A DNA stretch of 64,000 nt from a virus (IMGVR_UViG_3300029859_000151), one strand, 5' to 3'. Numbered from the stretch's first letter, positions 16,387 to 63,655 are shown. A program made the numbers and translations. The notes: a model not told the origin generated them from the letters alone.

Positions 16387-16399
16387 CTGTACCGAAAAA
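16387..16399 (+). promoter_or_regulatory. upstream element CTGTACCGAAAAA
   Basis: second conserved motif found 20-30 nt 5' of a subset (about 8) of the TCTGACATATTA promoters. Confidence 0.45.
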
Positions 16400-16413
16400 A
16401 GTTTTGAAAAACG

Positions 16414-16425
16414 TCCGACATATTA
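16414..16425 (+). promoter_or_regulatory. phage promoter motif, degenerate variant (TCCGACATATTA)
   Basis: only copy with C at position 3; precedes the candidate ncRNA region rather than a CDS. Confidence 0.4.
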
Positions 16426-16475
16426 TATATGAAAAAGAAACAAGGGAAAGAAGAACAAGTGATATTGTTTATCTC

Positions 16476-16640
16476 TTGACAATGCAATATCAAAATGATA
16501 TTGTATTATTAGCTACAAAAGTGGCAGTTAGTTGCACGAAGCAACCTTTTAAATCTCACGAAGAGACGTTGATCCCGAAAGGGAAAATTTTGACTCACGA
16601 AGAGTCGTTAAGTCGCGGGACATTTGTCTTGCGACTTTTT
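16476..16640 (+). ncRNA. candidate small structured RNA with three CACGAAG-loop hairpins and intrinsic terminator
   Basis: sigma70-like TTGACA-17-TATTGT at 16476-16504. Hairpins GTTGCACGAAGCAAC (16531-16545), TCTCACGAAGAGA (16554-16566) and GACTCACGAAGAGTC (16592-16606), plus TCCCGAAAGGGA. Terminator GTCGCGGGACATTTGTCTTGCGACTTTTT (16612-16640). No RBS for the overlapping 98-aa track ORF. Confidence 0.45.
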
Positions 16641-16682
16641 CAGTTTATAGGAACATGCAAAACAAAACTTATATTTTATTTT

Positions 16683-16694
16683 TCTGACATATTA
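16683..16694 (+). promoter_or_regulatory. phage promoter motif copy
   Basis: TTTCTGACATATTATTTTAAAG. Confidence 0.5.
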
Positions 16695-16746
16695 TTTTAA
16701 AGAATATTAATATATATATTATTTATGAAAACAGGAGGAAATTAAT

Positions 16747-17025
16747 ATGAATAATAGGCGACTGGTTAGTGAAACTTTATTGTCAGCTGTAGAAAATGTG
16801 CTAAAGAGAAGAGCAATTCCATACAAAATAGAAAAGGGGCCTGATGGCAAATTTTATTGTTTATCGGATTTGTCGGCGAATAATTTCCATAAGATTATTG
16901 TTCGGGCAAAGATGGAAAAAGAGACAGAAGAGCAAGGATTAACAATTCCTTATATTTCTAAGATGGAAATGGATGATTATGATGTCATCGAAGAATTAAA
17001 TGGCGTATTTGTCGTTCATGAGTAA
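16747..17025 (+). CDS. hypothetical protein (92 aa)
   Basis: RBS AACAGGAGGAAATTAAT-ATG. Confidence 0.5.
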   Translation: MNNRRLVSETLLSAVENVLKRRAIPYKIEKGPDGKFYCLSDLSANNFHKIIVRAKMEKETEEQGLTIPYISKMEMDDYDVIEELNGVFVVHE

Positions 17026-17072
17026 AAGCAATGAGCAATGAGCAACGAAAAATGAAAATGAATCGATTTCAC

Positions 17073-17103
17073 TAGACAGTCTTTAATGACTGTCTTTTTT
17101 TAT
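17073..17103 (+). terminator. rho-independent terminator
   Basis: TAGACAGTC-TTTAAT-GACTGTCTTTTTTTAT. Confidence 0.7.
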
Positions 17104-17128
17104 ACCCACGATGGGAAGGAGAATAATT

Positions 17129-17620
17129 ATGATTGAAGAAAACAAAAACTTTTGGGAAAATTGTGGACATACATATGAGGAGCATGTTGATGTCGATAAT
17201 CAGGATTTGAAAAACCGTGTTATGTTTGGGACATATGAAAGCGGAAGATTTGATGGACAAGGTAAATCAATTTGTTCGCGTTTTTCATCAGAAAAAATTG
17301 CTAAAATGGCTATCGAAAGAACACTTGAAATAAGATGCTCTGAAATTGAAGAGTGGATGAAATTGGGCTATCAGGAAGAAATTGTTGTAACAGTGAATTT
17401 TAGTAAAGCTATTGGAGTAGGATATGTGAAAGGCACGAACTTACGAAAAGATCCTTATTTGATGTATTCTATTTGCATGGTGTTACGTGCAGATGCTCAT
17501 TTCCGTTCATATTCTATAGTAACAGCTTACCCAATACCGAATAGAAATGTTGGAAAGCAAATTGCTAAAGACAAAAAAGACTTTTATGAAGAGAGAAGAG
17601 CCAGAAGAACTCAGAGATAG
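17129..17620 (+). CDS. hypothetical protein (163 aa)
   Basis: ATG after GGGAAGGAGAATAATT. Confidence 0.5.
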   Translation: MIEENKNFWENCGHTYEEHVDVDNQDLKNRVMFGTYESGRFDGQGKSICSRFSSEKIAKMAIERTLEIRCSEIEEWMKLGYQEEIVVTVNFSKAIGVGYVKGTNLRKDPYLMYSICMVLRADAHFRSYSIVTAYPIPNRNVGKQIAKDKKDFYEERRARRTQR

Positions 17621-17698
17621 TGATTATTTTTGATTTCACAAACATTTAAAAAGTCATGTTCCTTTTACAGGAATATGGCTTTTTGTATTTTCTATATT

Positions 17699-17710
17699 TC
17701 TGACATATTA
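17699..17710 (+). promoter_or_regulatory. phage promoter motif copy
   Basis: TTTCTGACATATTAGTTATGAAATG. Confidence 0.55.
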
Positions 17711-17754
17711 GTTATGAAATGAATATTAAGAAAGAAGGAGACGATAGAGACAAT

Positions 17755-18267
17755 ATGAATGAATATTTGGAACAGGCAAAAAATTTTTTGAATAAGGCAA
17801 ATGCAAAATGTGAAATTGTGTATGGCGGTATTTCGCGGAATGAAAATTGGGAAGAAAAAGAAAAAAGAAAATGGTACGATGTGACAATTACAACGCCAAG
17901 AGGTAAAATGGCATTCACATTTTGGGATAGTATTTACGACACAGAAATTTCTATAATGACATTCGAAAAATATGTAACAAAGAAGCTCGGGTACAATAGA
18001 GTTGAGAACATGTTATATAGCGAAAAGGTAAAGGCTAAAAATGATTTAGCCAGATTAAAGGCAGCGGCTGTACCAGATGAATATGATGTGCTTGCTTGTT
18101 TAGTGAAATATGATGTAGGAACTTTTGAGGATTTTTGTTCAGAGTTCGGGTACGATGAAGATAGCAGATCGGCAGAAAAAATTTACATTGCAGTTATTAA
18201 GGAATACAAAAATTTAACAAGAATTTTTACAGAGGAACAGATGGAAGAATTAAGAGAAATTCAGTAG
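17755..18267 (+). CDS. hypothetical protein (170 aa)
   Basis: ATG after AAGAAAGAAGGAGACG; the track start at 17719 lies inside the promoter motif. Confidence 0.5.
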   Translation: MNEYLEQAKNFLNKANAKCEIVYGGISRNENWEEKEKRKWYDVTITTPRGKMAFTFWDSIYDTEISIMTFEKYVTKKLGYNRVENMLYSEKVKAKNDLARLKAAAVPDEYDVLACLVKYDVGTFEDFCSEFGYDEDSRSAEKIYIAVIKEYKNLTRIFTEEQMEELREIQ

Positions 18268-18278
18268 GAGGAATAATC

Positions 18279-18920: not shown

Positions 18921-18934
18921 AAGCGGGGAATGGT

Positions 18935-19147
18935 ATGGATAATATGAAGATAATTGAAGTAAATAATCAGCGTAAAATTATATTAAAAAACAAACCAGAA
19001 AGTGTGGAGGTCACTGCTTATAACAGTGATAGTCACATTGACTATATTTACGATATTTCAGATGGAGATATTGTGATGCTACTAAATTATTATAGAAATT
19101 GCAAGACAGGCGTAGAAAGTTCTGATTATATATCAAAACAGAATTAA
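18935..19147 (+). CDS. hypothetical protein (70 aa)
   Basis: ORF with GGGGAATGGT RBS-like sequence. Confidence 0.4.
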   Translation: MDNMKIIEVNNQRKIILKNKPESVEVTAYNSDSHIDYIYDISDGDIVMLLNYYRNCKTGVESSDYISKQN

Positions 19148-19232
19148 AACTTAAAATAAAATGTTTGCAGAATATAGTAGTTGTTATATGAATAAACCAC
19201 AATATATAACATAAGAAAAGGAGATCGAAATT

Positions 19233-30915: not shown

Positions 30916-30928
30916 CTGTACCGAAAAA
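30916..30928 (+). promoter_or_regulatory. upstream element CTGTACCGAAAAA
   Basis: 17 nt 5' of the promoter core at 30945. Confidence 0.45.
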
Positions 30929-30944
30929 TAAATTTTTAGAAACA

Positions 30945-30956
30945 TCTGACATATTG
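30945..30956 (+). promoter_or_regulatory. phage promoter motif copy (variant ..ATATTG)
   Basis: ACATCTGACATATTGAATATGTAACC. Confidence 0.5.
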
Positions 30957-31007
30957 AATATGTAACCAAAAAACATGGCACACAGGAGGAATTGAATATG
31001 AGTGAGA

Positions 31008-31144
31008 ATATTACTTCACCAGAAAAGAACACTGTAGAAACTACAGAAAAAAAGCCGGCAATGTTTTCTAAGATGACCAGAAATCTTATGATTGCCACGG
31101 GCGTCTTGGTTATTGCAGCTATTGTTGTTGTGAATTTCCTGTAA
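31008..31144 (+). CDS. small membrane protein (45 aa), probable partner of the flotillin gene
   Basis: RBS CACAGGAGGAATTGAAT-ATG; single C-terminal TM helix; perfect palindrome GTGAATTTCCTG-TAA-TCAGGAAATTCAC spans its stop codon. Confidence 0.4.
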
Positions 31145-31237: not shown

Positions 31238-32770
31238 ATGTCATTATTAAATTTATCACTTATACCAATTATTGTTGCAGTATTAGTAATTGCATTACTT
31301 TGCATGGGATACGTGAAAGCGCCGCCGGATATGGCATATATTATTTCCGGTGTCAAGAAGAAGTCCAAAGTAGTCATCGGAAAAGCGAGTATTCGTATTC
31401 CATTTTTTGAGCGACTGGATAAGCTGAATCTACGGTTAATTCCAATTGACGTTAAGACAAGCAATGCTGTACCGACAGCAGACTACATCAATATCAATGT
31501 TGATGCAACTGTTAACATTAAGATCAGCAACGATCCAGAGAAGCTGCGGCTTGCGGCAGAGAATTTTTTAAATAAAAACACTGAGTATATTGCCGGGGTG
31601 GCAAGAGAGGTTCTTGAGGGTAATGTGCGTGAGATCGTCGGCAAGATGAAGCTCGAAGAGATGGTGTCTGACCGTCAGAAGTTTGCTAATCTGGTTAAGG
31701 AAAATGCAGAGCCGGATCTTGCAGCGATGGGACTCGATATTATTAGCTTCAATGTCCAGAATTTCGTGGATGGCAATGAGGTTATTGAAAATCTGGGTAT
31801 TGATAATATCGTAAAAATCAAGAAGAGTGCAGCGATTGCCCGTGCCGAGAGTGAGCGAGATATTAAAGTTGCTCAGGCAAATGCGGACAAGGAATCTAAT
31901 GATGCTGCCGTAGCCGCACAGACCGAAATCGCAAAGAAGCAGAATGAGCTTGCCATTAAGAAATCTGAACTTCAGATGGAAGCAGATACGAAAAAGGCTA
32001 TGGCTGATGCTGCTTATGAAATTCAGAAAGAGGAACAGCGTAAAACAATTGAGATCGCTACCGCAAATGCAGATATTGCAAAACAGGAGCGGGAAATTGA
32101 GTTGAAACAGAAGGAGGTTGCGGTCAAGGAGCAGTCTCTAGAGGCAGAGATTAAGAAACAGGCAGAGGCTGATAAGTATGCGGCACAGCAGAAAGCCGAT
32201 GCGGAGTTATATAAACGACAGAAAGAAGCAGAAGCAAAGAAATATGAAATGCAGCAGGAAGCAGAAGCTATGAAAGCGAAAGCAGAAGCAGAAAAATACG
32301 CTAAAGCACAGAATGCAGAGGGTATTCGCGCTATTGGACTTGCAGAAGCGGAAACTATTAAGGCGAAGTCGGTTGCAGAAGCTGAAGGTATCGAAAGAAA
32401 GGCAGAAGCACAGGCAAAGATGGGACAGGCGTCTGTAATTGACATGTTGACAGCTGTTATCCCGGAAGTGGCAAAGAGTGTAGCTGAGCCGTTAGCAAAA
32501 GTTGACAAGATCACAATGTATGGAGATGGTAATTCTACTAAATTAATTGGAGACATTACAAACTCTGTGACAAAAGTAATTGCTGGAGTAGGAGAATCAA
32601 CAGGAGTTGATATTTCCAAAATGGTAAAAGATTTTGCTGAAAAAACTAATGACAAGAAAGATGGTGATGTCATTGTAGACCTTGAGGCAAATGCGAACAC
32701 CAATGATAAAGCAATTGACACAAAGGATGATGACGATTCAGAGGATGTAGATTACAGAGAAGAGAAGTGA
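31238..32770 (+). CDS. SPFH/band-7 flotillin-like protein (YqiK/FloT-like)
   Basis: N-terminal TM helix, SPFH core (IPIDVKTSNAVPTADYININVDATV.., DRQKFANLVKE..) and a long Ala/Glu/Lys-rich coiled-coil (AEAEKYAKAQ..). Local GC is markedly higher than the rest of the window. Confidence 0.8.
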   Translation: MSLLNLSLIPIIVAVLVIALLCMGYVKAPPDMAYIISGVKKKSKVVIGKASIRIPFFERLDKLNLRLIPIDVKTSNAVPTADYININVDATVNIKISNDPEKLRLAAENFLNKNTEYIAGVAREVLEGNVREIVGKMKLEEMVSDRQKFANLVKENAEPDLAAMGLDIISFNVQNFVDGNEVIENLGIDNIVKIKKSAAIARAESERDIKVAQANADKESNDAAVAAQTEIAKKQNELAIKKSELQMEADTKKAMADAAYEIQKEEQRKTIEIATANADIAKQEREIELKQKEVAVKEQSLEAEIKKQAEADKYAAQQKADAELYKRQKEAEAKKYEMQQEAEAMKAKAEAEKYAKAQNAEGIRAIGLAEAETIKAKSVAEAEGIERKAEAQAKMGQASVIDMLTAVIPEVAKSVAEPLAKVDKITMYGDGNSTKLIGDITNSVTKVIAGVGESTGVDISKMVKDFAEKTNDKKDGDVIVDLEANANTNDKAIDTKDDDDSEDVDYREEK

Positions 32771-32993: not shown

Positions 32994-33066
32994 GGACCAT
33001 TAGTTCAGCTGGTAGAACGCTCGGCTCATAACCGGGAAGTCGTAGGTTCGAGTCCTACATGCTCCA
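32994..33066 (+). tRNA. tRNA-Met (anticodon CAT; elongator or Ile2-lysidine type)
   Basis: manual cloverleaf: acceptor GGACCAT/ATGCTCC (one mismatch), D-arm GTTC-AGCTGGTA-GAAC, anticodon loop CTCATAA, T-arm GTAGG-TTCGAGT-CCTAC, discriminator A. Confidence 0.75.
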
Positions 33067-33105: not shown

Positions 33106-33129
33106 TCTGTACCACTGCTGTACCGAAAA
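33106..33129 (+). promoter_or_regulatory. upstream element, tandem half-duplication (CTGTACCACTGCTGTACCGAAAAG)
   Basis: two CTGTACC copies 12 nt apart, 15 nt 5' of the promoter core at 33145. Confidence 0.4.
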
Positions 33130-33144
33130 GTTTTTAAAAATATT

Positions 33145-33156
33145 TCTGACATATTA
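33145..33156 (+). promoter_or_regulatory. phage promoter motif copy (in front of tRNA-Glu)
   Basis: TATTTCTGACATATTATATATGAAATC. Confidence 0.5.
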
Positions 33157-40389: not shown

Positions 40390-40404
40390 TGTATACCGAA
40401 AAAA
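40390..40404 (+). promoter_or_regulatory. upstream element variant (GTATACCGAAAAAA)
   Basis: 11 nt 5' of the promoter core at 40416. Confidence 0.4.
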
Positions 40405-40415
40405 GAAAAAGGATA

Positions 40416-40427
40416 TCTGACATATTA
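40416..40427 (+). promoter_or_regulatory. phage promoter motif copy
   Basis: GGATATCTGACATATTAAAAATAGG. Confidence 0.55.
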
Positions 40428-45939: not shown

Positions 45940-47730
45940 ATGGATTTTCAAGTTCCAACATTTATTCAGGAAATAGAAGAAATGCCGTCACGTCAGGCAA
46001 TTGATGTCAAGGAATTAGAGCGAAAAAGAAAGACAGAAAGAGAAGACCGTGCATTAATAAAGCTTCTTGCCGCTGACTGTGTTTATAACAAAGGAATGTT
46101 TGATGTCATGTATTGTGAAAATACATCTGAACAGAGGAAAAGTTCCGTTTCTTATTCTATTCAAAAATTTCATCCACAAAAAGAGTCTACTCTTACGCCA
46201 ATGGGGGAGATTCACAAATTAGAAGCTGATGGAAAAATCGGCTTTTTTGTATATCCAATAGTGAAATTTTTTACAAAAGGAACGATTAAAAACACTGAAT
46301 CTCACACAATTACGTTTAAACTTACTGGAGATCTAGCAGAAAGAATCAATGCAGGAGAGGATCTGCTCCAGGATGAAGTATATTATTTGTTGAAAAAAGA
46401 ATATCCGTTTTTAAACACTTTTTCTCCATATGCTGTGATTGCAGATGGTGATAGGGCATTGTATTTAATGTATACTTTTGCAGACAATATTATAAACAGA
46501 AAGAAAAATGTTAAGGATCTTTACCTGCTACTTTCAGATTTTACTGGTATGCCAATGGCAAACGAAACAGATTTTTATAACATTCCGTTCCCTTGCCCTA
46601 ATACAAAAAACAAAAATACGGGCAAAAATTGCAGATTTTACTGGGATCAGAGATATAAGATCCGCACCTTAACGGGTTTTGTTTCTTTAAACGTAGGGAT
46701 CTTTTCAAGTTCTGCCGTGAAGAAGGTTGTTTATTATGAAGACGGCAGCATAAAAGAAAATGCAGACATTACAGATTTTCATGCATATTGGATCAATAAG
46801 TATGGTTCGGAATTTCTGGCAGATAATCCAGAATATTCGGAGCCTATGTCTGTTTATAAAAATAAAGGAAACAAAAAGAAAAAAGATGATTTTATTGGTT
46901 TTGCTAATAGCATAAACACAGATATTTCAAAAATGAATTTCTGGACTTTTTGCACTATAATCAATCATTCCGGTAAATATGAGCACAAAAGCATACATAC
47001 AGTAAATGATGTTGATTACAGCAAAACACCGGGAAAATTTCTTAGAGATCTTCGTACCATATTTGAAGAGCGAAATGGCAATATGAAAGGAATGGAAAAA
47101 GCTTTCATTTATCATATGACGCTTACATTAATTTGGTGCAAAGCGAACAATGCTGAAATACGTACTATTATCAAAGAATATAACAAGAAGATGAAACATC
47201 CTTTAACAGATGAGACGGTAAGGCAAATTGTGGATGCAAGAATTAAAAATAGAGGAAAGGAGCATGTTTCGGCAAAAAAAATTACGGCTGAGTTAAACCT
47301 TTCAGATGCCTTCATCCTTAATCGGGCAAAGATTTGCTATAATAAAGAAAGAATTCTTGCCAGAAAAAGAAAAGCAAGTCAGAAAGCTAACGAATATCGA
47401 AAGAAGCAAGTTGCTCTTAAAAGAAAGGCTAAATATGATGCCTTAAAAAAGGCCTATTTAGCAGGCGGTAATTACAAAGATATGGAAATGGCAAGTGGCT
47501 GGAGCCGAAATACTGTGAAAAAATATTTAAAAATGGTCTTAATGGATCAAAAGAAAAAATACGAGCAGTGGAAACTCCGCCAGGAAATAAAAGCGGTAGA
47601 AACAGGCAAGACTAAAAAGGTAGGCATTCCACAGTCATATAAACGGATCGCTGCTATTTTAGATAGAACAGAAAGCAACATCTGGATTTCAAGATTGGCA
47701 GAGCAGACAGAACAAGTCGCATTAATATAA
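45940..47730 (+). CDS. hypothetical protein (596 aa) with two C-terminal helix-turn-helix-like segments
   Basis: C-terminus: ITAELNLSDAFILNRAKI and GGNYKDMEMASGWSRNTVKKYLKMV (sigma region 4 / resolvase-like HTH pattern) separated by a Lys/Arg-rich linker; last gene before the AT-rich non-coding region. Confidence 0.55.
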   Translation: MDFQVPTFIQEIEEMPSRQAIDVKELERKRKTEREDRALIKLLAADCVYNKGMFDVMYCENTSEQRKSSVSYSIQKFHPQKESTLTPMGEIHKLEADGKIGFFVYPIVKFFTKGTIKNTESHTITFKLTGDLAERINAGEDLLQDEVYYLLKKEYPFLNTFSPYAVIADGDRALYLMYTFADNIINRKKNVKDLYLLLSDFTGMPMANETDFYNIPFPCPNTKNKNTGKNCRFYWDQRYKIRTLTGFVSLNVGIFSSSAVKKVVYYEDGSIKENADITDFHAYWINKYGSEFLADNPEYSEPMSVYKNKGNKKKKDDFIGFANSINTDISKMNFWTFCTIINHSGKYEHKSIHTVNDVDYSKTPGKFLRDLRTIFEERNGNMKGMEKAFIYHMTLTLIWCKANNAEIRTIIKEYNKKMKHPLTDETVRQIVDARIKNRGKEHVSAKKITAELNLSDAFILNRAKICYNKERILARKRKASQKANEYRKKQVALKRKAKYDALKKAYLAGGNYKDMEMASGWSRNTVKKYLKMVLMDQKKKYEQWKLRQEIKAVETGKTKKVGIPQSYKRIAAILDRTESNIWISRLAEQTEQVALI

Positions 47731-47746
47731 TTTTTCAAAAATGAAA

Positions 47747-47793
47747 TATGACTTAAAGGCTTATGAAAGTTGTTGAAAAAATAAGCCTTTTTG
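47747..47793 (+). terminator. terminator-like hairpin
   Basis: AAAGGCTTAT-GAAAGTTGTTGAAAAAAT-AAGCCTTTTTGTTG. Confidence 0.5.
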
Positions 47794-47849
47794 TTGTACC
47801 TAAAATTAGAAAAAATGAGTGGAAACCGCAAGAAATCTTTAAGTTTTCT

Positions 47850-47945
47850 GTCAAAAAATAAAATCCGCATATATAAAAACTTGTGTAGAACAAAAAAATA
47901 TAGTGGTTTGTCGTAAGTGTCAAAAAATAAAATCCGCATATATAA
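47850..47945 (+). repeat. 27-bp direct repeat x2 (GTCAAAAAATAAAATCCGCATATATAA), 69-bp spacing
   Basis: exact copies at 47850-47876 and 47919-47945 within a 750-bp non-coding AT-rich region. Confidence 0.7.
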
Positions 47946-48162
47946 TAATTTAAGGCTCATATCGGGGCAAAAAATGCTCCGAATTAAATAATTGCTGAAA
48001 CAAAATTGGAATAAAAATTTTTACATATTAAAAGAATCGTTAATACAATCTCATAGCTTCATTTGCGTCGGAATAAATCCGCCGCTCATTCCGCGTTTTT
48101 AAAAGGAAAGTTTTCCACCTAATCGTTAATAACTGGCTGACAGCCTCATTGTAATTAAAATT

Positions 48163-48208
48163 TTTATACACAGATTTAAACTGGATTTATACACAGATTT
48201 AAACTGGA
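48163..48208 (+). repeat. 23-bp tandem direct repeat x2 (TTTATACACAGATTTAAACTGGA), iteron-like
   Basis: exact tandem copies at 48163-48185 and 48186-48208. Confidence 0.7.
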
Positions 48209-48413
48209 ACGTCGATATTTTTAAATTTAACAAAAAAATTTTATATTCAGTATTTTTCATTATATAAAAGTTGGTAAAAGTCATAAAAAACAATGTTTCA
48301 ATATAGTGAAATCGCCGGAAAATAAGGAAAGACAGGAGCCTAAGAAGCGAAAATTATCAAGACTATGAAAATATATAGATAAATTGTAATATACAAGATA
48401 AAGTATATATACA

Positions 48414-48441
48414 TTGCGAACGTTACAAAATATGGTATAAT
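48414..48441 (+). promoter_or_regulatory. host-type sigma70/sigmaA promoter with extended -10 (TTGCGA-16-TGgTATAAT)
   Basis: only strong canonical promoter noted in the window; lies where the phage-specific motif is absent, 35 nt upstream of the CDS at 48477. Confidence 0.55.
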
Positions 48442-48476
48442 AAATTTAAAATATTAGAAAGGAGCTTAAGTATAAT

Positions 48477-48821
48477 ATGATATTTAAGTGTGGTATGGTA
48501 AATCCCATAATTAGAAAAATTGTTATTGATGAAAAATTGTTGCTAAAGGCAAAAGGACTTTTAAGAAATTTCCCTCAAATTTCTGGAAAATACGAAGAAG
48601 ATATTCGGCAATACAGAAAAAATAAAGAGATAATAAATGAATTGTCATATGAATATAATTTGCCAAATGATTCAACAGGTATTGATAAAAGCAAATATAA
48701 ACCTGGAGAAATTTTCTTAATCATACTTCCTAATCCAGAAGTAAAAAGAGTTTTAGATGAACTTATTAGATTGCAAACAGTTTATTCAAAACAAATACAA
48801 AATCGACTATATACTAAATAA
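48477..48821 (+). CDS. hypothetical protein (114 aa), putative early gene
   Basis: RBS AGAAAGGAGCTTAAGTATAAT-ATG; expressed from the host-type promoter. Confidence 0.5.
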   Translation: MIFKCGMVNPIIRKIVIDEKLLLKAKGLLRNFPQISGKYEEDIRQYRKNKEIINELSYEYNLPNDSTGIDKSKYKPGEIFLIILPNPEVKRVLDELIRLQTVYSKQIQNRLYTK

Positions 48822-49503: not shown

Positions 49504-50166
49504 ATGAAGATTATTAAAAGAAATGGAGAAGAAAAGCCATTTCAAGCTGAAAAAATTGCAAAAGCGATTAGCAAGGCAAATGAAAGTGTGATCGATTATG
49601 AACGATTGAGCGAATCTCAAATTGCCGAAATTGTCTCAAATGTGACAAAAGCCTGTGAGAACATGAGCCATAGCCCTAATGTGGAAGAAATTCAGGATAT
49701 GGTTGAAAATCAGATTATGCAGCAAGGGGCATTTTCTGTAGCAAGAAATTATATTACTTATCGTTATAAACGAGAAATCGTTCGGAAATCAAATACTACT
49801 GATCAACAGATTCTTAGTTTAATTGAGTGTGATAATGAGGAAATTAAACAGGAGAATTCTAATAAGAACCCAACAGTGGTCAGCGTGCAAAGAGATTATA
49901 TGGCCGGGGAAGTCAGTAAGGATCTAACAAAAAGATTTTTTTTACCACCAGATATTGTCGAAGCGCATGAAAATGGACTTATACATTTTCATGATGCTGA
50001 TTATTTCTGCCAGAGAATGAACAATTGTGGACTGGTTAATTTGGAGGATATGCTTCAGAACGGAACTGTTATTAGTGGAACAATGATTGAGAAACCTCAT
50101 AGTTTTTCGACAGCCTGCAATATCGCAACACAAGTAATTGCTCAAGTAGCGAGCAGTCAGTACGGT
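49504..50166 (+). CDS. nrdD: anaerobic ribonucleoside-triphosphate reductase NrdD, exon 1 (ATP-cone + N-terminal part)
   Basis: MKIIKRNGEEKPFQAEKIAKAISKA is an ATP-cone start typical of NrdD. The ORF runs to ..VASSQYG, then the frame hits a stop 8 codons later inside the intron. Predicted exon end at T50166. Confidence 0.75.
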
Positions 50167-51402
50167 TTAAAGAGATCTGCCGTACTTTAAAAACAATATT
50201 AACCATCAGAGATGGGGTTATGCCTTAAATGGCATGGCTAACGAGGTAGGTTGGAAAAGCTGATCTCGTGATCATTTTGATAATTAACGATTTTTAAAAA
50301 TAAAGAGGTGGAATGCCTATGGCAAAAACAACAAGTGCAACAAGTGCAACAAATGCAGAAAAATCTGAGCTTATGAAATCTGCGATTTTTCAATTATATA
50401 GTAAAGAGGGAAGATCAATTTGTTATATTAGTCGGTTATTGGAAATCAACAGGAAGACGCTTTCAGAAAAAATAGAAGAATGGGATTTTCCAAAACCAAA
50501 ACCGACAAAATATGTAAAACCGTCAACCCAAAAATTTATTAATAAAAATAGAGCTTTGATAAAATCTCGTTTGGATAATGATATTTCCATAACAAAAATT
50601 GCGGAGGAATTGCAAGTTGAGCGAAGTTTTCTTCAAAAAACAATTATTCCAAATGACGAAATTTTGTATAAGGCAAAATGTGATTATATAAAAAGAAAAC
50701 AATCAAATGCAGAAGAGCGCAGAAATGAAATATTGAAAAATTCAAGGCAGGAATATATTTTTAGTGATTTGCCCGGGGAGATTTGGAGACCTATTTTAGG
50801 GTACGAAGGATATATGGTATCCAACAAAGGACGAATTAAAAAATATGCAAAAAGATATAAGGCATATTATTTAATTGCCCAAACTCCAAACAAAAATAAT
50901 GGGCGCTTATACGTTTGTTTGTTTAAGGGGAATAAAAGAAAAAATATGCAAGTTGCAAGAATTGTCGCACATGCATTTGTGGATGGATTTGATGGCACAC
51001 ACAATACTGTAAATCACGAAGATGGGAATGTCCAAAACAATGAAGCCACAAATCTTACTTGGACAAGCCAATCAGAAAATAATAAACATTCGTATACAAA
51101 ACTAAATCGGCAAAAAGTGAATTTTAAGAAATATAAGTTTAAAAAAATTATCTATAAAGAAAAGTATGAGTTTAAAACGGTTGCTGCATTGGCGCGTTTT
51201 TTAGGAAAATCTGAAACACAGACTAGACGTTATTTAGATTATCCGGAAAAACATAATTTGCAATTATGTAATTAACAAAATGATTGTAACGACTACCGTA
51301 AGCTATCAGCGATGATAGTTGAAACATATTGGCGGATATAATAACAATATCTGCAAGAAATAGTCTAAGCTATGTGTAGAATACGAACTTACATAGTATT
51401 TG
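50167..51402 (+). other. group I intron (predicted) interrupting nrdD, carrying an HNH endonuclease ORF
   Basis: 5' exon ends in U and the intron ends in G (G51402). Joining 50166 to 51403 restores a continuous frame ..IAQVASSQYG|GQSISLAHLAPF.. Structured GC-richer segments lie at 50190-50310 and 51276-51400. Confidence 0.6.
50313..51275 (+). CDS. HNH homing endonuclease (intron-encoded), with NUMOD/AP2-like DNA-binding region
   Basis: IWRPILGYEGYMVSNKGRIKKY; HNH motif VNHEDGNVQNNEATNLTWTSQSENNKHS; N-terminal HTH-like segments. Confidence 0.75.
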   Translation: MPMAKTTSATSATNAEKSELMKSAIFQLYSKEGRSICYISRLLEINRKTLSEKIEEWDFPKPKPTKYVKPSTQKFINKNRALIKSRLDNDISITKIAEELQVERSFLQKTIIPNDEILYKAKCDYIKRKQSNAEERRNEILKNSRQEYIFSDLPGEIWRPILGYEGYMVSNKGRIKKYAKRYKAYYLIAQTPNKNNGRLYVCLFKGNKRKNMQVARIVAHAFVDGFDGTHNTVNHEDGNVQNNEATNLTWTSQSENNKHSYTKLNRQKVNFKKYKFKKIIYKEKYEFKTVAALARFLGKSETQTRRYLDYPEKHNLQLCN

Positions 51403-52944
51403 GGACAGAGCATATCTTTAGCACATCTTGCTCCTTTTGTACAGATAAGCCGAGAGAAGTTTCGTAAGCAGATACAAAAAGAAGCCATAGATACAAAGAT
51501 TGCTCTTGACAAAGAACAGCTTGAAAGAATTGTGGAATCTCGTGTAAGAGAAGAAATTAACAAAGGAGTTCAAATGATTCAGTATCAGATCATTACGCTT
51601 ATGACGACTAATGGCCAGGCTCCATTTGTTACAGTTTTTATGTATTTACACGAAGTTCCGGAAGGACAAACAAGAGATGATCTTGCGATGATCATTGAGG
51701 AGGTGCTTAAACAGAGAATAACAGGTGTTAAAAATGAGCAAGGAGTATATATTACTCCGGCGTTTCCAAAGTTAATTTATGTATTGGAAGAAGATAATAT
51801 TAAAAAAGATTCAAAGTATTGGTATTTAACAGAACTTGCTGCAAAATGTACAGCAAAAAGAATGGTCCCGGATTACATTTCTGAAAAAGTCATGAAGTCA
51901 GTTAAAGAAGGCGAAACTTTCCCTTCAATGGGGTGTAGAAGTTTTCTTACTATAGACCGTTTTTCGGAAACAAAAGGCAATATCTCTAAAGCAAAGAATT
52001 TTGAGGAGCATAAAGGACATGTATATTACTCAAGATTTAATCAGGGTGTGGTGACAATCAACCTGGTTGATGCAGCTTGTACTTCAGGTGGAGACGAGGA
52101 AAAATTTTGGAAAATTTTAGATGAACGTTTGGAATTGTGCCATCGTGCATTACGTATTCGTCATGAGCATTTGTTAGGAACAAAATCAGATGTAGCACCA
52201 ATTCTTTGGCAGCATGGAACATACGCCCGATTAGAGAAAGGGGAAACAATAGACCAACTTTTGGTTGGTGGTTTCTCAACAATATCATTGGGATATGCCG
52301 GATTATATGAATGTACTATGCGAATGAAAGGTGTGTCACATACTGATCCAAAGGGAACGCCATTTGCGATTGCTGTTATGCAGAAATTAAATGATGCATG
52401 CAATAAATGGAAGGCAGAAGAAAATATTGATTATTCTGTATATGGGACACCTTTGGAATCGACAACTTATAAGTTTGCAAAATGTCTTCAGAAAAGATGG
52501 GGAATTATTAAAGATGTAACGGACCATAATTATATTACAAATTCATATCATGTATGCGTAAGAGAACATATGGACGCTTTTACAAAATTGAAATTTGAAT
52601 CACAGTTTCAAAAACTATCCCCGGGCGGAGCAATCAGTTATGTAGAAGTTCCTAATATGCAGAACAATATTCCTGCAGTACTTTCTGTAATGCAATTTAT
52701 TTATGAAAATATCATGTATGCAGAGCTAAATACAAAGAGTGATTATTGCATGCAATGTGGATATGATGGAGAAATCCAGATTGTTCCAGATGAAGATGGA
52801 AAGCTTATATGGGAATGTCCAAAATGCAAAAACCGTGATCAAAGCAAAATGAGTGTGGCACGAAGAACTTGTGGTTACATTGGGACGCAGTTCTGGAATC
52901 AGGGCAGAACACAGGAGATCAAGGAACGCGTTCTGCATTTATAA
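51403..52944 (+). CDS. nrdD: NrdD, exon 2 (glycyl-radical C-terminal part)
   Basis: C-terminus CMQCGY..CPKCKNRD zinc ribbon followed by the glycyl-radical motif RRTCGYIGT; the track ORF begins at TTG 51400, but the reading frame is open across the 3' splice site. Confidence 0.75.
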   Translation, partial: GQSISLAHLAPFVQISREKFRKQIQKEAIDTKIALDKEQLERIVESRVREEINKGVQMIQYQIITLMTTNGQAPFVTVFMYLHEVPEGQTRDDLAMIIEEVLKQRITGVKNEQGVYITPAFPKLIYVLEEDNIKKDSKYWYLTELAAKCTAKRMVPDYISEKVMKSVKEGETFPSMGCRSFLTIDRFSETKGNISKAKNFEEHKGHVYYSRFNQGVVTINLVDAACTSGGDEEKFWKILDERLELCHRALRIRHEHLLGTKSDVAPILWQHGTYARLEKGETIDQLLVGGFSTISLGYAGLYECTMRMKGVSHTDPKGTPFAIAVMQKLNDACNKWKAEENIDYSVYGTPLESTTYKFAKCLQKRWGIIKDVTDHNYITNSYHVCVREHMDAFTKLKFESQFQKLSPGGAISYVEVPNMQNNIPAVLSVMQFIYENIMYAELNTKSDYCMQCGYDGEIQIVPDEDGKLIWECPKCKNRDQSKMSVARRTCGYIGTQFWNQGRTQEIKERVLHL

Positions 52945-52977: not shown

Positions 52978-53012
52978 AGAGACAGCTCTTAACGACTGTC
53001 TCTTTGTTTTTT
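52978..53012 (+). terminator. rho-independent terminator
   Basis: GAGACAGCTCTT-AAC-GACTGTCTCTTTGTTTTTTG. Confidence 0.65.
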
Positions 53013-53024
53013 GTACCGAAAAAA
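53012..53024 (+). promoter_or_regulatory. upstream element (TGTACCGAAAAAA)
   Basis: 15 nt 5' of the promoter core at 53040. Confidence 0.45.
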
Positions 53025-53039
53025 TAAAAATAGAATATA

Positions 53040-53051
53040 TCTGACATATTA
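53040..53051 (+). promoter_or_regulatory. phage promoter motif copy
   Basis: ATATCTGACATATTAAAAATAAAAAG. Confidence 0.55.
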
Positions 53052-53078: not shown

Positions 53079-54143
53079 ATGACAAAGAAGGATATTAATT
53101 ATATTAAAAAGCATTTAAAACTAGAAAATTGTACGGTTTCAAAAATTTGTGGCTGTTTAGTTAATACAGAAAGAGAAAAAGTCTGTGTTTTTAAAGAAAA
53201 CTTTTTAGCTCAATCAGATGATGATATGGAAAAATATTTGAAATTAGAGAAAAAGATTTTTTCAAATAAGCTTCGGGACAATTCGATTATTTCAACATTT
53301 TCGACTCAGGAAGAAACTTCAGGAGAGTCATATAAGTTATTAAGAAAATTAGCTAATGGAAGTCTTTCAGAAGAAGTATTGATGTCTTTTTATGATAAAG
53401 TTATTGAAACATATTCTATTGCATCAAATTATTTGATCTTATTGTTTTTTGATTCAATGGATTTGCCCGGAGATGAAAATTCTTTGGATGTTTATCAGTA
53501 TGTTACTTGTTTAATTTGCCCGATGAAATTATCTGCGGATACACTTGGTTATGACAGTAAAGATAATTTGATCGCAAAAATGCCAAGATCAAATATTGTT
53601 TCTGCACCAGAATGTGGCTTTGCTTTTCCTGTATTACATAATATGCAGACAGATTTGCACTCTATTATGCTGTATTCAAAAAAGGCAAAAGAGCCAAAAA
53701 CAGAAATATTAGTAGATCTAACAGGCTGTAAATATATAAGAACTGCAACGCAAAAGAAAGAATTGCTTTTAAATGGCATTGCAGCAGCATATGGAGAAAA
53801 TGGAACTGATTTTTTGGCAGAATATATGAAAGAAATTTCGCCAGAAGATAACGAAGAAATTTACAATGAGGTTTCTCTTGATACTATGAAAAAATCATTT
53901 GAAAATATTTCAAACGATCCAGAAGCTACAAATACATTTATTACTGGTCTTGAAAAAGCTTTGGGAAATGAAGAAATTTTGATGATGGATATTTTTATGG
54001 AGAATATGCTGGAGAGAGCAAATGTCCTAGAGCGAAGAAAACGTATGAGACTATTATTAACAGAGTGTATTAATAAAATTGAACAGAATGAAGGAAAAAC
54101 AGATTTAACAGAGGAGATCCGAAGCACATTTTTGGCAAGTTAG
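53079..54143 (+). CDS. hypothetical protein (354 aa); not an NrdG activase
   Basis: good RBS AAAGAAAGGAAAACCTGTTT-ATG; no CxxxCxxC radical-SAM motif. Confidence 0.55.
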   Translation: MTKKDINYIKKHLKLENCTVSKICGCLVNTEREKVCVFKENFLAQSDDDMEKYLKLEKKIFSNKLRDNSIISTFSTQEETSGESYKLLRKLANGSLSEEVLMSFYDKVIETYSIASNYLILLFFDSMDLPGDENSLDVYQYVTCLICPMKLSADTLGYDSKDNLIAKMPRSNIVSAPECGFAFPVLHNMQTDLHSIMLYSKKAKEPKTEILVDLTGCKYIRTATQKKELLLNGIAAAYGENGTDFLAEYMKEISPEDNEEIYNEVSLDTMKKSFENISNDPEATNTFITGLEKALGNEEILMMDIFMENMLERANVLERRKRMRLLLTECINKIEQNEGKTDLTEEIRSTFLAS

Positions 54144-57183: not shown

Positions 57184-57195
57184 TCTGACATATTA
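57184..57195 (+). promoter_or_regulatory. phage promoter motif copy
   Basis: TTTTCTGACATATTAAAAGAAAAC. Confidence 0.55.
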
Positions 57196-59974: not shown

Positions 59975-60015
59975 TTATTGATTGTAAATATATAAGAAAA
60001 AAGGAGAGTTAAATT

Positions 60016-61086: not shown

Positions 61087-61106
61087 AAACATAAGCGTTT
61101 CAAATG

Positions 61107-61143
61107 AATTAAAGAGAGAGAAGAAATTCTCTCTCTTTTTTGT
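61107..61143 (+). terminator. rho-independent terminator
   Basis: AGAGAGAG-AAGAAATT-CTCTCTCTTTTTTGTG. Confidence 0.7.
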
Positions 61144-61161
61144 GCAAAACAGCAGAAAAAA

Positions 61162-61173
61162 TCTGACATATTA
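61162..61173 (+). promoter_or_regulatory. phage promoter motif copy
   Basis: AAATCTGACATATTAAATAAAAAAC. Confidence 0.55.
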
Positions 61174-61201
61174 AATAAAAAACAGAAAGGAGCGGCGATT
61201 T

Positions 61202-63601
61202 TTGAATTTTCCGCCGAAGGTATTGTTTATGAAAAAAGCTTTGCTGATTGCAGAAAAACCAAATTATATGCGAGATATAAAAGCTGTTTATGAAAAGCAT
61301 AAATCTGAAATTCCTTTTAATATTGATTTTATTGCGCAAAGAGGGCATTTAGTTCAGTTGTTAGATCCAGCAGAAATGAATGAAATTTATAAAAGCTGGG
61401 ACATCAATTATTTGCCAATTGTTCCAGAGGATGAAGGTGGTTGGAAATATAAGATTATTCCGGGTGCAGAAAATTTAATGAAGGAAATTAAAAAGAAGCT
61501 TCATTCTGGAGAATATGACCTTATTATCCATGCTGGCGATTCAGATCAGGAGGGAGAGCTTTTGGTTCGCCTGGTTTTAGACGAATTAAAAAATACATTG
61601 CCGGTTATCCGGTTATGGGTAAATGCGACCACGGAATCAGAAATTTTAGCAGGTCTTAAAAACATGAAAAGTGATGATGAGGCAATGTATGAGAATTTAT
61701 ATTATTCTGCGCTTGTCAGACAACATTCTGATTGGCGTTTTGGTATGAACGGATCGCGGGCAGTTGCAAATAAGATCGTCACGTCAAAAGATAACAAAAT
61801 TGCAGTTGGAAGAGTAATGACGGCAATTTTGTCTATTGTTGTTAAAAGAGAAGATGATATTAAAAACTTTAAACCACAAACAACTTATGGAATAGTTTTA
61901 AATCATTCAAATGGATTGGAAACGCAGCTATTTCAAGAAGAAGTGACAACTGATGAAAAAGGAAAAAAGAACATTTCTCAAAATCTCGTGTATTTTGATA
62001 CGGAAAAAGAAGCAGAGGATTTTATTGATAAATTAGATGAGAAAAGTATCGTCCTTTCTGTGGAAGAAAAAAATGAAAAAGTATATGCGCCAAAGTTATA
62101 TAATTTGTCGGATTTGCAGTATGATGCTTCAAAATTAAATTTCTCTCCAGATGAAACACTTGAGATTGTGCAAGGATTATATGAAAAACATTTTTTGACA
62201 TATCCGAGAACAGATTGCAATTATTTAAATAGTACAGATAAATTTGAAGAAATGATTCATGCAGCGGCATCTGTACCAGGGTATGAAATAATTGCTAAGG
62301 AAGTAATAGGAAATATTGAAAGTGTTAAGAAAAACAAAAAGTTTGTAAATAACGAAGAGTTAAAAAAGCATGGGCATTCCGCTTTATGCCCGACAGATGT
62401 ACCGGCTGATTTTGAAAGGTTGTCAGCAGATGAACAATTAATATATAAATTGGTTTGTCGGAGATATTTGTCTATTTTCTTGCCGCCTATGATTCAGAAA
62501 AAGACAATAGTTGTTGTTGAAAATAACGACAATTTGTTCCGAACGATAGGAAAAAGAATAATTGATAAAGGATATACTACATTTCTTAATGCAGAAATAA
62601 AAAACACAGATCTTCCGGAAGTGAAAAAGGGAGAAATGTTAGAGGTTGATAAAAAAAATATTGTTGAAAAAACGTCCACTTGTCCAAAGCGGTTTACATC
62701 AGGAGATCTCGCTAGAGCATTAGAGAATCCGGCAAAATTTTTACAAGATAAAAATATTGTTAATAAGGATTTTAAAATAGGAACGTCTTCAACAAGAGCA
62801 GAAATTATTAAAAAGTTAATCAAAGACAAATATTTGTCAAGCAATTCAAAACAAGTGTTATCGCCAACGGAATGGGGAAGTTTTTTGGCTCACGCATTAA
62901 AAGATCTTGATATTTCAAAAGCGGATATGACTGCGAAATGGGAAGACCTGCTACAGAGAATTAAAAAAGGAGAATTACCCGTAGAACAGGCGGAAGACAT
63001 GATGCGCAGGGAAGTAAAAAAGCTTATATATGATATTAGCAATATGCAGGAATACACATTTGGGGATGTGAATGCCAATACTAGAATTGTTGGGAAATGT
63101 CCATATTGCGGGAAAGATATTATAAATTCTGGGAAAAATTATTTTTGTTCTGGTTATAAAGAGGGGTGTAACACTTCAATACCACTAGAGTTTTTGGGGG
63201 CTAAATTTTCATCAGATGATGCAATGGCACTATTTAAAGGAGCTGTTATTACTAAAAAATTAAAGAAAGATAAGAGTACTTGGCAACAAGATTTGAGATT
63301 TAATAAAGGAACTGGCCGAATAGAATTTGTAAAAAATGATGCAGAAACAGACATTTCTTGTCCTAAATGCGGAAGAAAATTGAAACATGATGGCGCTATT
63401 TTAAAGTGTGAATGTGGATATAGCTTATGGACAAAGGTAGCTGGATATGAGTTGTCAGATGATGAATTGGGCTATATATTTGAACATGGATCTACACATA
63501 AGCCTATTAAAAAATTTAAAAGCAGTAAAGGAAAAGCATTTTCTGCTAATCTAAAATTAAAAAAGGACTATAGTGGATTTGAGTTTGTCTTTGAAAAATA
63601 A
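61202..63601 (+). CDS. type IA DNA topoisomerase (topoisomerase III-like) with C-terminal zinc ribbons
   Basis: Toprim N-terminus KKALLIAEKPNY and HAGDSDQEGELL (DxDxEGE); active-site Tyr motif LTYPRTDCNYL; C-terminal CPYCG..C..C and CPKCG..CECG. TTG at 61202 has the better RBS; alternative ATG at 61229. Confidence 0.8.
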   Translation: MNFPPKVLFMKKALLIAEKPNYMRDIKAVYEKHKSEIPFNIDFIAQRGHLVQLLDPAEMNEIYKSWDINYLPIVPEDEGGWKYKIIPGAENLMKEIKKKLHSGEYDLIIHAGDSDQEGELLVRLVLDELKNTLPVIRLWVNATTESEILAGLKNMKSDDEAMYENLYYSALVRQHSDWRFGMNGSRAVANKIVTSKDNKIAVGRVMTAILSIVVKREDDIKNFKPQTTYGIVLNHSNGLETQLFQEEVTTDEKGKKNISQNLVYFDTEKEAEDFIDKLDEKSIVLSVEEKNEKVYAPKLYNLSDLQYDASKLNFSPDETLEIVQGLYEKHFLTYPRTDCNYLNSTDKFEEMIHAAASVPGYEIIAKEVIGNIESVKKNKKFVNNEELKKHGHSALCPTDVPADFERLSADEQLIYKLVCRRYLSIFLPPMIQKKTIVVVENNDNLFRTIGKRIIDKGYTTFLNAEIKNTDLPEVKKGEMLEVDKKNIVEKTSTCPKRFTSGDLARALENPAKFLQDKNIVNKDFKIGTSSTRAEIIKKLIKDKYLSSNSKQVLSPTEWGSFLAHALKDLDISKADMTAKWEDLLQRIKKGELPVEQAEDMMRREVKKLIYDISNMQEYTFGDVNANTRIVGKCPYCGKDIINSGKNYFCSGYKEGCNTSIPLEFLGAKFSSDDAMALFKGAVITKKLKKDKSTWQQDLRFNKGTGRIEFVKNDAETDISCPKCGRKLKHDGAILKCECGYSLWTKVAGYELSDDELGYIFEHGSTHKPIKKFKSSKGKAFSANLKLKKDYSGFEFVFEK

Positions 63602-63606
63602 AAATA

Positions 63607-63640
63607 AGTCGCATAGTTAATTCTATGCGGCTTGTTTTTT
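63607..63640 (+). terminator. rho-independent terminator
   Basis: AGTCGCATAG-TTAATT-CTATGCGGCTTGTTTTTTGC. Confidence 0.7.
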
Positions 63641-63646
63641 GCAATG

Positions 63647-63655
63647 CTGTACCGA
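63647..63655 (+). promoter_or_regulatory. upstream element (CTGTACCGA, truncated A-run)
   Basis: 17 nt 5' of the promoter core at 63673. Confidence 0.35.

What the first reader, a model, noticed from the sequence alone, without database searches (positions are those of the whole stretch)
16387..63655. A second upstream element, CTGTACCGAAAAA, defines a sub-class (about 8) of these promoters
At 16387, 30916, 32850, 33106 (tandem half-duplication), 40390 (variant), 45861, 53012 and 63647, a GTACCGAAAAA box lies 11-17 nt 5' of the TCTGACATATTA core. These bipartite promoters front a coherent subset: the candidate ncRNA, the small membrane protein plus flotillin gene pair, both entries to the tRNA cluster, the RecD2 helicase, the HTH protein at 45940, the gene after nrdD, and the last ORF. 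This suggests a separately regulated class, for example middle versus late, or an activator-binding site.
Basis: seen in the sequence. Interest (0 to 1): 0.55.

Follow-up and report, generated by a model that had tools for sequence, protein, structure and literature searches.

The report
Upstream box on megaplasmid promoters
About a quarter of the near-identical promoters on this human-gut conjugative megaplasmid carry a second conserved box, (C/T)TGTACCGAAAAA, roughly 12-16 bases upstream, which probably binds an unidentified protein controlling replication, partition and RNA genes.

Summary
All eight listed sites exist, and there are two more on the minus strand. Of 10 GTACCGA 7-mers in the window, 8 lie 14-22 nt upstream of a TCTGACATATTA core (binomial P about 2e-19).

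Syntenic relatives fetched by protein (82%, 53% and 47% identity) keep a box at the same promoters. In the most distant lineage all three read TATATCG instead of GTACCG, while the core is unchanged.

Box promoters have a significantly weaker proximal T-tract, the upstream element of the majority class. The box forms no hairpin.

The element is not a phage. The flanks carry type IV secretion genes and an actin-like partition gene on a 262-kb scaffold, so "middle versus late" does not apply.

The box fronts a prim-pol/Rep-like gene, the partition operon, RecD2, DUF4317, flotillin, the tRNA arrays and short non-coding units.

My best reading is a positive-acting binding site near -40 for an unidentified factor. 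No sigma factor, RNA polymerase or clear regulator was found among roughly 170 proteins scanned.

Unexpectedly, box plus core also occurs as a roughly 220-bp inserted promoter-plus-tiny-ORF cassette in Blautia-like phages.

The parts
16387..16425 (+). Box CTGTACCGAAAAA (16387-16399), 14-nt spacer, core TCCGACATATTA (16414-16425).
   Evidence: no Rfam hit
30916..30956 (+). Box CTGTACCGAAAAA, 16-nt spacer, core TCTGACATATTG. It fronts a 48-aa membrane protein (30998-31144) and an SPFH/flotillin gene (31238-32770).
   Evidence: the same promoter occurs in L035/L072
32850..32888 (+). Box CTGTACCGAAAAA, 14-nt spacer, core. This is the first entry to the tRNA cluster (tRNA-Met at 32994).
33106..33156 (+). 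Half-duplicated box CTGTACCACTGCTGTACCGAAAAG, 14-nt spacer, core. This is the second entry to the tRNA cluster; tRNA-Glu starts 17 nt after the core.
40391..40427 (+). Variant box GTATACCGAAAAA, 12-nt spacer, core. It fronts the RecD2-type helicase gene (40456-42573).
   Evidence: identical in L019; TATATCGAAGGG in L021
45861..45897 (+). Box CTGTACCGAAAAA, 12-nt spacer, core. It fronts the 596-aa gene (45940-47730), which has an AEP prim-pol/RepB'-like N-domain and a C-terminal HTH-like segment.
53011..53051 (+). Box TTGTACCGAAAAA, 16-nt spacer, core. It fronts the DUF4317 gene (53079-54143).
63647..63684 (+). Variant box CTGTACCGATTTT, 13-nt spacer, core. It heads a 5.7-kb operon that runs beyond the window and includes an S26 peptidase and an ALP_N actin-like partition protein.
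7527..7565 (-). Box TTGTACCGATTTT (7565 down to 7553), 14-nt spacer, core (7538 down to 7527). It fronts a 280-aa membrane protein gene (7427 down to 6585).
12721..12758 (-). Minus-strand variant. Box-like TTATACCTAAAAA (CCG changed to CCT), 13-nt spacer, core GCTGACATATTA. It fronts a 97-aa gene (12685 down to 12392). This is the weakest member.

Best explanation
The box (consensus YT[G/A]TA[C/T]CGAAAA, read on the same strand as the gene) is a promoter-proximal protein-binding site. It lies about 12-16 bp upstream of the 12-bp core that serves as this megaplasmid's general promoter.

If transcription starts a few bases after the core, the box lies at roughly -45 to -32. That is the position used by factors that touch RNA polymerase at or just upstream of the -35 region.

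My reading is that a sequence-specific protein binds the box and helps polymerase onto promoters that lack the proximal T-tract used by the majority class. That protein has not been identified and is probably encoded by the element. Where both elements are present, as at the tRNA and ncRNA-like units, the protein would strengthen the promoter further.

This would define a regulon of vegetative and maintenance functions:
- the prim-pol/Rep-like gene next to the likely origin
- the actin-like partition operon
- RecD2
- DUF4317
- flotillin
- tRNAs
- short non-coding units
- the two divergently oriented genes

Shown: existence, non-random placement, fixed orientation, conservation, lineage-specific change, anticorrelation with the T-tract, absence of secondary structure.

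Inferred: that a protein binds it, that the effect is positive, and the position relative to the transcription start.
For: 1. Placement: 8 of 10 GTACCGA 7-mers lie 14-22 nt upstream of a core, always in the core's orientation, on both strands.

2. Conservation at orthologous promoters in loci fetched by protein, not by motif. The RecD2, 596-aa and DUF4317 promoters are identical in L019 (82% relative). A box is retained in L024 (53%) and L021 (47%), although spacers and flanks differ.

3. In the L021 lineage all three orthologous boxes read TATATCG(A/G)AA instead of GTACCGAA, while TCTGACATATTA is unchanged. This fits a box-reading part that evolves separately from the core-reading part.

4. 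Discreteness: PWM scores are bimodal. Box promoters score 12-23. Nearly all others score below 2 at the same offsets, with a short tail of degenerate boxes that is absent at control offsets.

5. Compensation:
- T count at -13..-7 is 2.8 in box promoters against 4.8 in the rest in the window (P = 6e-4).
- Across 110 family promoters it is 2.86 against 4.5 (P = 2e-5).
- In the family set, T at -11 occurs in 13/28 box promoters against 69/82 of the rest.
- The two box-less, T-tract-less promoters (57184, 61162) carry degenerate box-like strings.

6. Spacing varies (11-16, with outliers at 19, 23 and 26). This is looser than a rigid -35/-10 pair.

7. There is no consistent hairpin.

8. Box plus core moves as a unit. 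An inserted cassette of about 220 bp in Blautia-like phages carries both.
Against: - No binding protein was found. No sigma, RNA polymerase or clear HTH regulator appeared among all window proteins or about 100 further family proteins. About 180 kb of the scaffold could not be read.
- No transcription start sites or expression data were available, so both the -40 position and the positive sign are inferred.
- Even/odd spacings of 12, 14 and 16 do not keep one face of the helix, which is unusual for classical class II activators.
- The T-tract anticorrelation is only a correlation. Four box promoters have both elements.
- Many family promoters were retrieved with a box+core pattern, which biases the family set. 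The three protein-fetched lineages are unbiased.
- The lineage-specific switch rests on only three promoters.
Confidence: 0.5

Rival explanations
1. The box is the -35-type element of the same dedicated sigma-like factor that reads the core. Region 4 would read GTACCGA and regions 2/3 would read the core. Box promoters would then be the full-consensus promoters, and the rest would be extended -10-type promoters that do without a -35.
For: - The core resembles an extended -10 (TCTG-A-CATATT). Its first five bases equal the TCTGA -10 of E. coli sigmaE-type promoters (my knowledge, not tested).
- With TCTGA taken as the -10, GTACCGA lies 16-20 bp upstream.
- The presumably strongest promoters (tRNA) carry the box, the T-tract and the core together.
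- Box and core travel together in the phage cassettes.
Against: - Spacing ranges over 11-16, with 19, 23 and 26 in apparently retained sites. That is broader than sigma70 or ECF promoters tolerate.
- Only 25% of promoters have the box, and there is no graded -35 signal in the rest.
- The ECF hallmark AAC is absent.
- No sigma gene was found.
Confidence: 0.25
2. The box is the operator of a plasmid-wide repressor that coordinates replication, partition and accessory genes, in the manner of KorA/KorB on IncP plasmids or omega on Inc18 plasmids.
For: - The gene set includes the Rep-like primase gene and the partition operon.
- KorB class I operators sit about 39-40 bp upstream of the start (my knowledge).
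- The window-lineage box is an 8/10 pseudo-palindrome, TCnGTACnGA (read from the sequence).
Against: - There is a single asymmetric site per promoter, always in one orientation.
- The palindrome is lost in the TATATCG lineage.
- Box promoters are the ones lacking the other upstream element, which suggests need rather than restraint.
- tRNA promoters are odd targets for a repressor.
- No ParB/KorB or ribbon-helix-helix family hit was found.
Confidence: 0.12
3. The box is an UP-like or curvature element: an A-tract plus flank contacted non-specifically by the polymerase alpha subunit C-terminal domain.
For: - An A5-7 run follows CCG.
- It occurs at tRNA promoters, where UP elements are classical.
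Against: - The invariant part is the G/C-containing TGTACCG, not the A-run.
- Two members have T-runs instead: 63647 and 7553.
- A lineage-wide switch to TATATCG points to specific base reading.
Confidence: 0.05
4. The box has no function of its own. Either box promoters are copies of one ancestral promoter cassette, or the box is the -10 (CCGATAA-like) of an overlapping sigma28-type promoter.
For: - ACCGAAAA resembles GCCGATAA (my knowledge).
- Promoter cassettes clearly move, as the phage insertions show.
Against: - Spacers and flanks of the ten promoters are unrelated.
- The box survives at orthologous sites where protein identity is 47-53% and intergenic DNA has diverged.
- The conserved TCTGTA part is outside any sigma28 consensus.
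- No consistent TAAA lies 15 bp upstream.
Confidence: 0.05

Closest known systems
Phage T4 middle promoters (MotA box plus sigma70 -10)
   Same: A short asymmetric box upstream of a -10-type element marks a subset of promoters. It substitutes for the usual upstream element and is read by a dedicated activator.
   Different: The sequence is different (TGCTTtA centred at -30). The box here lies about 10 bp further upstream with looser spacing. No MotA or AsiA homologue was found. The element is a plasmid, not a phage.
MarA/SoxS/Rob-type monomeric activators at class II promoters
   Same: An asymmetric, orientation-dependent site of about 13-20 bp with an A-rich half, overlapping or abutting the -35 region.
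   Different: There is no marbox consensus. The only AraC-like signal is a weak 28-residue hit in a 758-aa family protein outside the window. That gene itself has a degenerate box.
Global regulons of large conjugative plasmids (KorA/KorB operators of RK2, omega sites of pSM19035)
   Same: One short motif recurs at promoters of replication, partition and accessory genes across a large conjugative plasmid.
   Different: Those operators are palindromes or repeated heptads and act negatively. Here there is a single asymmetric site, which more likely acts positively.
Conjugative gut megaplasmids filed as huge phages ('Hodors', PMC12934698)
   Same: Firmicutes-type T4SS megaplasmids of 200-390 kb from human gut metagenomes, present in viral databases, with surface-protein modules and links to prophages.
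   Different: Hodors have 45-47% GC and Rep_3/ParAB. This element has 32% GC, a prim-pol-type Rep and an actin-like partition gene. That paper, as far as I read it (abstract, outline and one results section), does not mention promoters.
Phage morons (autonomous promoter-gene-terminator insertions)
   Same: The T1/T2 phage cassettes are about 220-bp insertions between conserved genes. They have their own promoter and a tiny ORF, sit upstream of a terminator-like hairpin, and have lower GC than the phage.
   Different: The promoter is not a recognisable host sigmaA promoter. It is the exact box+core of an unrelated megaplasmid family.

Membership tests
sigma70-family bipartite promoter (box as -35 element) | Upstream hexamer at a fixed 17 +/- 1 bp from the -10 element | tested here: not met
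   From GTACCG to CATATT the distance is 22-26 bp. To TCTGA it is 17-21 bp. Family-wide spacers are 11-16, plus 19, 23 and 26.
sigma70-family bipartite promoter (box as -35 element) | The element is present, at least in degenerate form, in most promoters read by the same factor | tested here: not met
   10 of 40 window promoters have it. Class A shows no information content at -30..-20, and PWM scores are bimodal.
sigma70-family bipartite promoter (box as -35 element) | A sigma factor gene on the element | tested here: inconclusive
   No Sigma70 family hit in any scanned protein.
ECF (group 4) sigma promoters | -35 with the AAC motif, 16-17 bp spacer, short -10 such as TCTGA or CGTC | tested here: not met
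   TCTGA is present in the core. There is no AAC in the box, the spacer is 16-20, and the further invariant CATATTA is unexplained by this model.
Activator site at or upstream of -35 (class II / MotA-box-like) | Asymmetric site in fixed orientation, placed just upstream of the core promoter | tested here: met
   All ten sites share the core's orientation, on both strands, 12-16 bp upstream.
Activator site at or upstream of -35 (class II / MotA-box-like) | Target promoters lack the element that other promoters use | tested here: met
   The T-tract is weaker in box promoters: P = 6e-4 in the window and 2e-5 in the family.
Activator site at or upstream of -35 (class II / MotA-box-like) | A cognate DNA-binding activator exists and binds the site | not testable with these tools
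   No candidate was identified. Only a weak AraC-like hit in L083:5240-7516, with no PDB relative.
UP element | A/T-rich, with no invariant G/C positions, read by alpha-CTD | tested here: not met
   CCG is invariant in the window lineage, T-run variants exist, and there is a lineage switch to TATATCG.
Plasmid global-repressor operators (KorA/KorB, omega) | Palindromic or repeated sites | tested here: not met
   Single site per promoter. There is an 8/10 pseudo-palindrome in one lineage only.
Intrinsic terminator or other hairpin element | Stable stem-loop, more stable than shuffled sequence | tested here: not met
   Seven of eight sites have z-scores between -1.2 and +1.3. Only weak U:A stems appear where a terminator T-run precedes the box.
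Phage temporal promoter class (middle/late) | The element is a phage with timed gene classes | tested here: not met
   The flanks encode a T4SS coupling protein, PrgI, TrbL, a VirB4-like ATPase and an ALP partition gene. No structural phage gene was seen.
Moron (for the phage T1/T2 cassettes) | A discrete insertion, relative to close relatives, carrying its own promoter and ORF | tested here: met
   Alignment A2 shows an insertion of about 220 bp that is absent from L223, L227 and L215. 70 of 80 related loci lack it.

The most novel reading that the evidence does not exclude
The megaplasmid runs its own transcription code, orthogonal to the host's. That code is an invariant 12-bp core read by an unrecognised plasmid-encoded factor, plus either a T-tract or the box.

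Blautia-like temperate phages have captured a box+core promoter in front of 27-41-aa hydrophobic peptides. The prophage gene would then fire only when such a plasmid is present or enters the cell. This would be a natural sentinel promoter for plasmid exclusion or abortive entry.

Nothing excludes this reading:
- The exact box+core was found in only one of 185,579 species genomes, in a chance-like context.
- In 467 kb of these phages the core occurs only with the box.
- The phages and the plasmid family exchange genes.

Simple capture of a plasmid cassette explains the same facts equally well.
Probability: 0.12. Interest if true: 0.8.

Novelty: new member of a known kind. Interest (0 to 1): 0.5.

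Why it matters
Large conjugative plasmids of gut Firmicutes are only now being recognised, and nothing is known about how they are transcribed.

This element shows a very uniform promoter with two alternative upstream elements. One of them marks replication, partition and RNA genes. That gives concrete, testable handles:
- a 13-bp site for pull-downs
- a natural specificity switch (GTACCG versus ATATCG) for finding the reader protein by covariation
- a portable, compact promoter that may be useful for genetics in Lachnospiraceae

The cassette in phages is direct evidence of regulatory DNA moving between plasmid and phage gene pools.

Tried and rejected
- **Phage identity.** Megablast against phages and plasmids found nothing. 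A RecD2-based search of viral contigs found nothing. The flanks then showed a T4SS.
- **Shared late promoter.** I first read the single box+core in GC-44% phage contigs as their late-operon promoter and looked for a shared late activator. Profile searches of phage proteins against plasmid loci found none. Alignment with relatives showed the unit is an inserted cassette, so that idea was dropped.
- **Host-type promoter.** The exact scan of 185,579 species genomes gave one chance-like hit. The scan was exact-match only, so this is not proof.
- **Box independent of the core.** TCTGTACCGAAAAA alone in viral contigs gives chance-level hits with no common downstream motif.
- **Hairpin or terminator remnant.** Rejected.
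- **RNA polymerase in disguise.** There is no D-x-D-G-D motif in window proteins. PDB sequence searches of the 773-, 596- and 526-aa unknown proteins were empty.
- **596-aa 'HTH protein' as the regulator.** The structure model (low confidence) points to an AEP primase, so more likely Rep than a transcription factor.
- **Related isolate plasmid.** The A. rectalis 252-kb record is unrelated.
- **Literature.** Neither motif string appears in a relevant paper. The Hodor megaplasmids are a different family.
- **Sample co-occurrence.** An informal reading of sample names shows little co-occurrence of the phages and the plasmid. This was not computed.
Full report
**The observation**

The window is AT-rich (about 32% GC) with nearly all genes on the + strand. 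It holds 40 copies (up to 1 mismatch) of TCTGACATATTA. Each lies 25-45 nt upstream of a ribosome-binding site and start codon, often directly after a terminator hairpin.

Two more lie on the minus strand: 7553-7565, and a CCT variant at 12746-12758. Both minus-strand genes of the window therefore use box-type promoters.

Chance is excluded:
- GTACCGAAAAA with up to one mismatch occurs 11 times against 1.4 expected.
- 8 of the 10 GTACCGA 7-mers on both strands lie 14-22 nt upstream of a core in the core's orientation (binomial P = 1.8e-19).

**What the element is**

Nothing close exists in the phage or plasmid collections. Exact look-ups of two window proteins place the window at about 19-83 kb of a 262,177-bp ENA scaffold.

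The flanks point to a conjugative plasmid:
- Upstream lies a T4SS coupling protein.
- Downstream of the topoisomerase III gene lie an S26 peptidase, an ALP_N actin-like partition protein, TrbL_2, PrgI and a VirB4-like ATPase.
- Family loci add PcfJ, RadC, DnaE, DprA, ToxN and GmrSD.
- No phage structural gene was seen.

This is a conjugative megaplasmid (or a very large ICE) of gut Firmicutes. It is present in viral collections, as reported for a different megaplasmid family (PMC12934698). 'Middle versus late' therefore does not apply.

**Conservation**

Homologues of the 596-aa protein at 82%, 53% and 47% identity led to syntenic loci fetched independently of the motif. Results for the three orthologous promoters:

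| Lineage | RecD2, 596-aa and DUF4317 promoters |
|---|---|
| L019 (82%) | Identical to the window |
| L024 (53%) | CTGTACCGAAG is kept at the 596-aa promoter, with a longer spacer |
| L021 (47%) | All three carry a box at the same place, reading TATATCG(A/G)AA |

In L021 the core is unchanged and the spacers are unrelated. The concerted switch suggests the box is read by a part that evolves separately from whatever reads the core.

**Two upstream elements**

I aligned 110 distinct family promoters on the core.
- The majority class shows a T-tract at -13..-7, with T at -11 in 69 of 82 promoters.
- Box promoters are A-rich in that stretch.
- T counts differ in the window (2.8 against 4.8, P = 6e-4) and in the family (P = 2e-5).
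- Four box promoters (ncRNA-like, flotillin, both tRNA entries) have both elements.
- The two promoters with neither (SSB at 57184, topoisomerase at 61162) carry degenerate box-like strings at the right distance.
- PWM scores are otherwise bimodal.
- The box forms no consistent hairpin.

**Gene set**

Box promoters front the following:
- a prim-pol/RepB'-like gene (low-confidence model, best fold hits 6zp9_A and 3h20), next to a 750-bp non-coding stretch with iteron-like repeats
- the partition operon
- RecD2
- DUF4317
- a membrane protein plus flotillin
- the tRNA arrays
- short non-coding units
- two divergent genes

T4SS genes and the small genes of the first 16 kb use the T-tract class.

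**An unexpected relative**

Exact scans for box+core found two kinds of sequence: the plasmid family, and GC-44% phage contigs that each carry exactly one copy. The portal of these phages is 50% identical to that of Blautia phage Montmirail.

The copy is not their late promoter. Alignment with the closest relatives shows an insertion of about 220 bp. It contains conserved left flank, box, spacer, core, ribosome-binding site and a 27-41-aa hydrophobic ORF. It sits just before a pre-existing terminator-like hairpin. It is absent from 70 of 80 related loci.

Further points:
- In 467 kb of these phages the core occurs as a promoter only with the box.
- The ORFs have no match in the plasmid loci I hold.
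- A 400-bp gene is shared at 78% nucleotide identity between the two element families, so they exchange DNA.
- The box+core was absent from 185,579 species genomes apart from one chance-like hit.

**Mechanism**

The core looks like an extended -10 (TCTG-A-CATATT). It must be the downstream promoter element, because ribosome-binding sites begin as little as about 12 nt after it. The box then lies at about -45 to -32.

I favour a positive-acting site for a dedicated DNA-binding protein (confidence 0.5). The grounds are:
- discreteness
- fixed orientation
- loose spacing
- compensation for the missing T-tract
- presence at tRNA promoters
- retention in the mobile cassette

The main rival is a -35-type element of a dedicated sigma factor (0.25). 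A global repressor operator (0.12) and UP-like or non-functional readings are less likely.

No sigma factor, RNA polymerase or clear regulator was found in about 170 scanned proteins. About 180 kb of the scaffold was out of reach. No expression data were available.

**Verdict**

This is a real, conserved cis-element that defines a promoter subclass on an uncharacterised gut megaplasmid. It is a new member of a known kind of element, the reader protein is unidentified, and the link to phage cassettes is intriguing.

Noticed in passing
Window 1-64000; flanks in L287 and L291: The window belongs to a roughly 262-kb conjugative megaplasmid, not a phage. It has a T4SS coupling protein, PrgI, TrbL, a VirB4-like ATPase and an ALP actin-like partition gene. 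Relatives of this element are filed in IMG/VR as viral contigs.
   Followed up: yes
Loci L002-L016, L207-L226 and others (phage contigs); alignment A2: Blautia-like phages of about 57-60 kb carry a 220-bp inserted cassette with the exact box+core promoter and a 27-41-aa hydrophobic ORF. Most close relatives lack the cassette. There are two cassette types with the same left half and different ORFs.
   Followed up: partly
Window 47731-48476: A 750-bp non-coding stretch follows the prim-pol/Rep-like gene. It has two 34-nt repeats and a 23-nt tandem pair, so it is probably the replication origin.
   Followed up: partly
Window 48412-48441: TTGCGA-N16-TGGTATAAT is the only canonical sigmaA-type extended -10 promoter seen in front of a non-IS gene (48477-48821, 114 aa, no family hit). 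This gene may be read by host polymerase.
   Followed up: no
Window 49504-52944: The anaerobic ribonucleotide reductase gene nrdD is split in two by an insertion carrying a NUMOD4/HNH endonuclease ORF (50313-51275). It is intact (734 aa) in relatives L019 and L288.
   Followed up: no
Window 820, 1917, 5210, 8540, 11068: Five near-identical promoter-plus-leader units carry the palindrome GAGTTTTTTAAAAACTC just downstream of the core, in front of small genes at the T4SS-proximal end. This may be an operator or an RNA structure.
   Followed up: no
Window 3500-5034: An IS200/IS605-type unit (Y1 transposase fragment plus TnpB) with its own sigmaA-like promoter. It is absent at this place in the 484-kb relative L292.
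   Followed up: no
L086 (reverse) 5660-6060 and L006 (reverse) 1561-1963: A 400-bp gene is shared at 78% nucleotide identity between a cassette-bearing phage and the plasmid family. This is evidence of gene flow between them.
   Followed up: partly
L043 6055-6300 and L058/L011: A DNA-level similarity of about 245 bp (hits in several reading frames) between the phage loci and a plasmid-family locus. Its nature is unknown.
   Followed up: no
L083 5240-7516 (promoter at 5223): A 758-aa family protein with a weak AraC-type HTH hit is itself preceded by a degenerate box (TTGTATCTAAAAAA). This is the only faint candidate for a box-binding regulator.
   Followed up: partly
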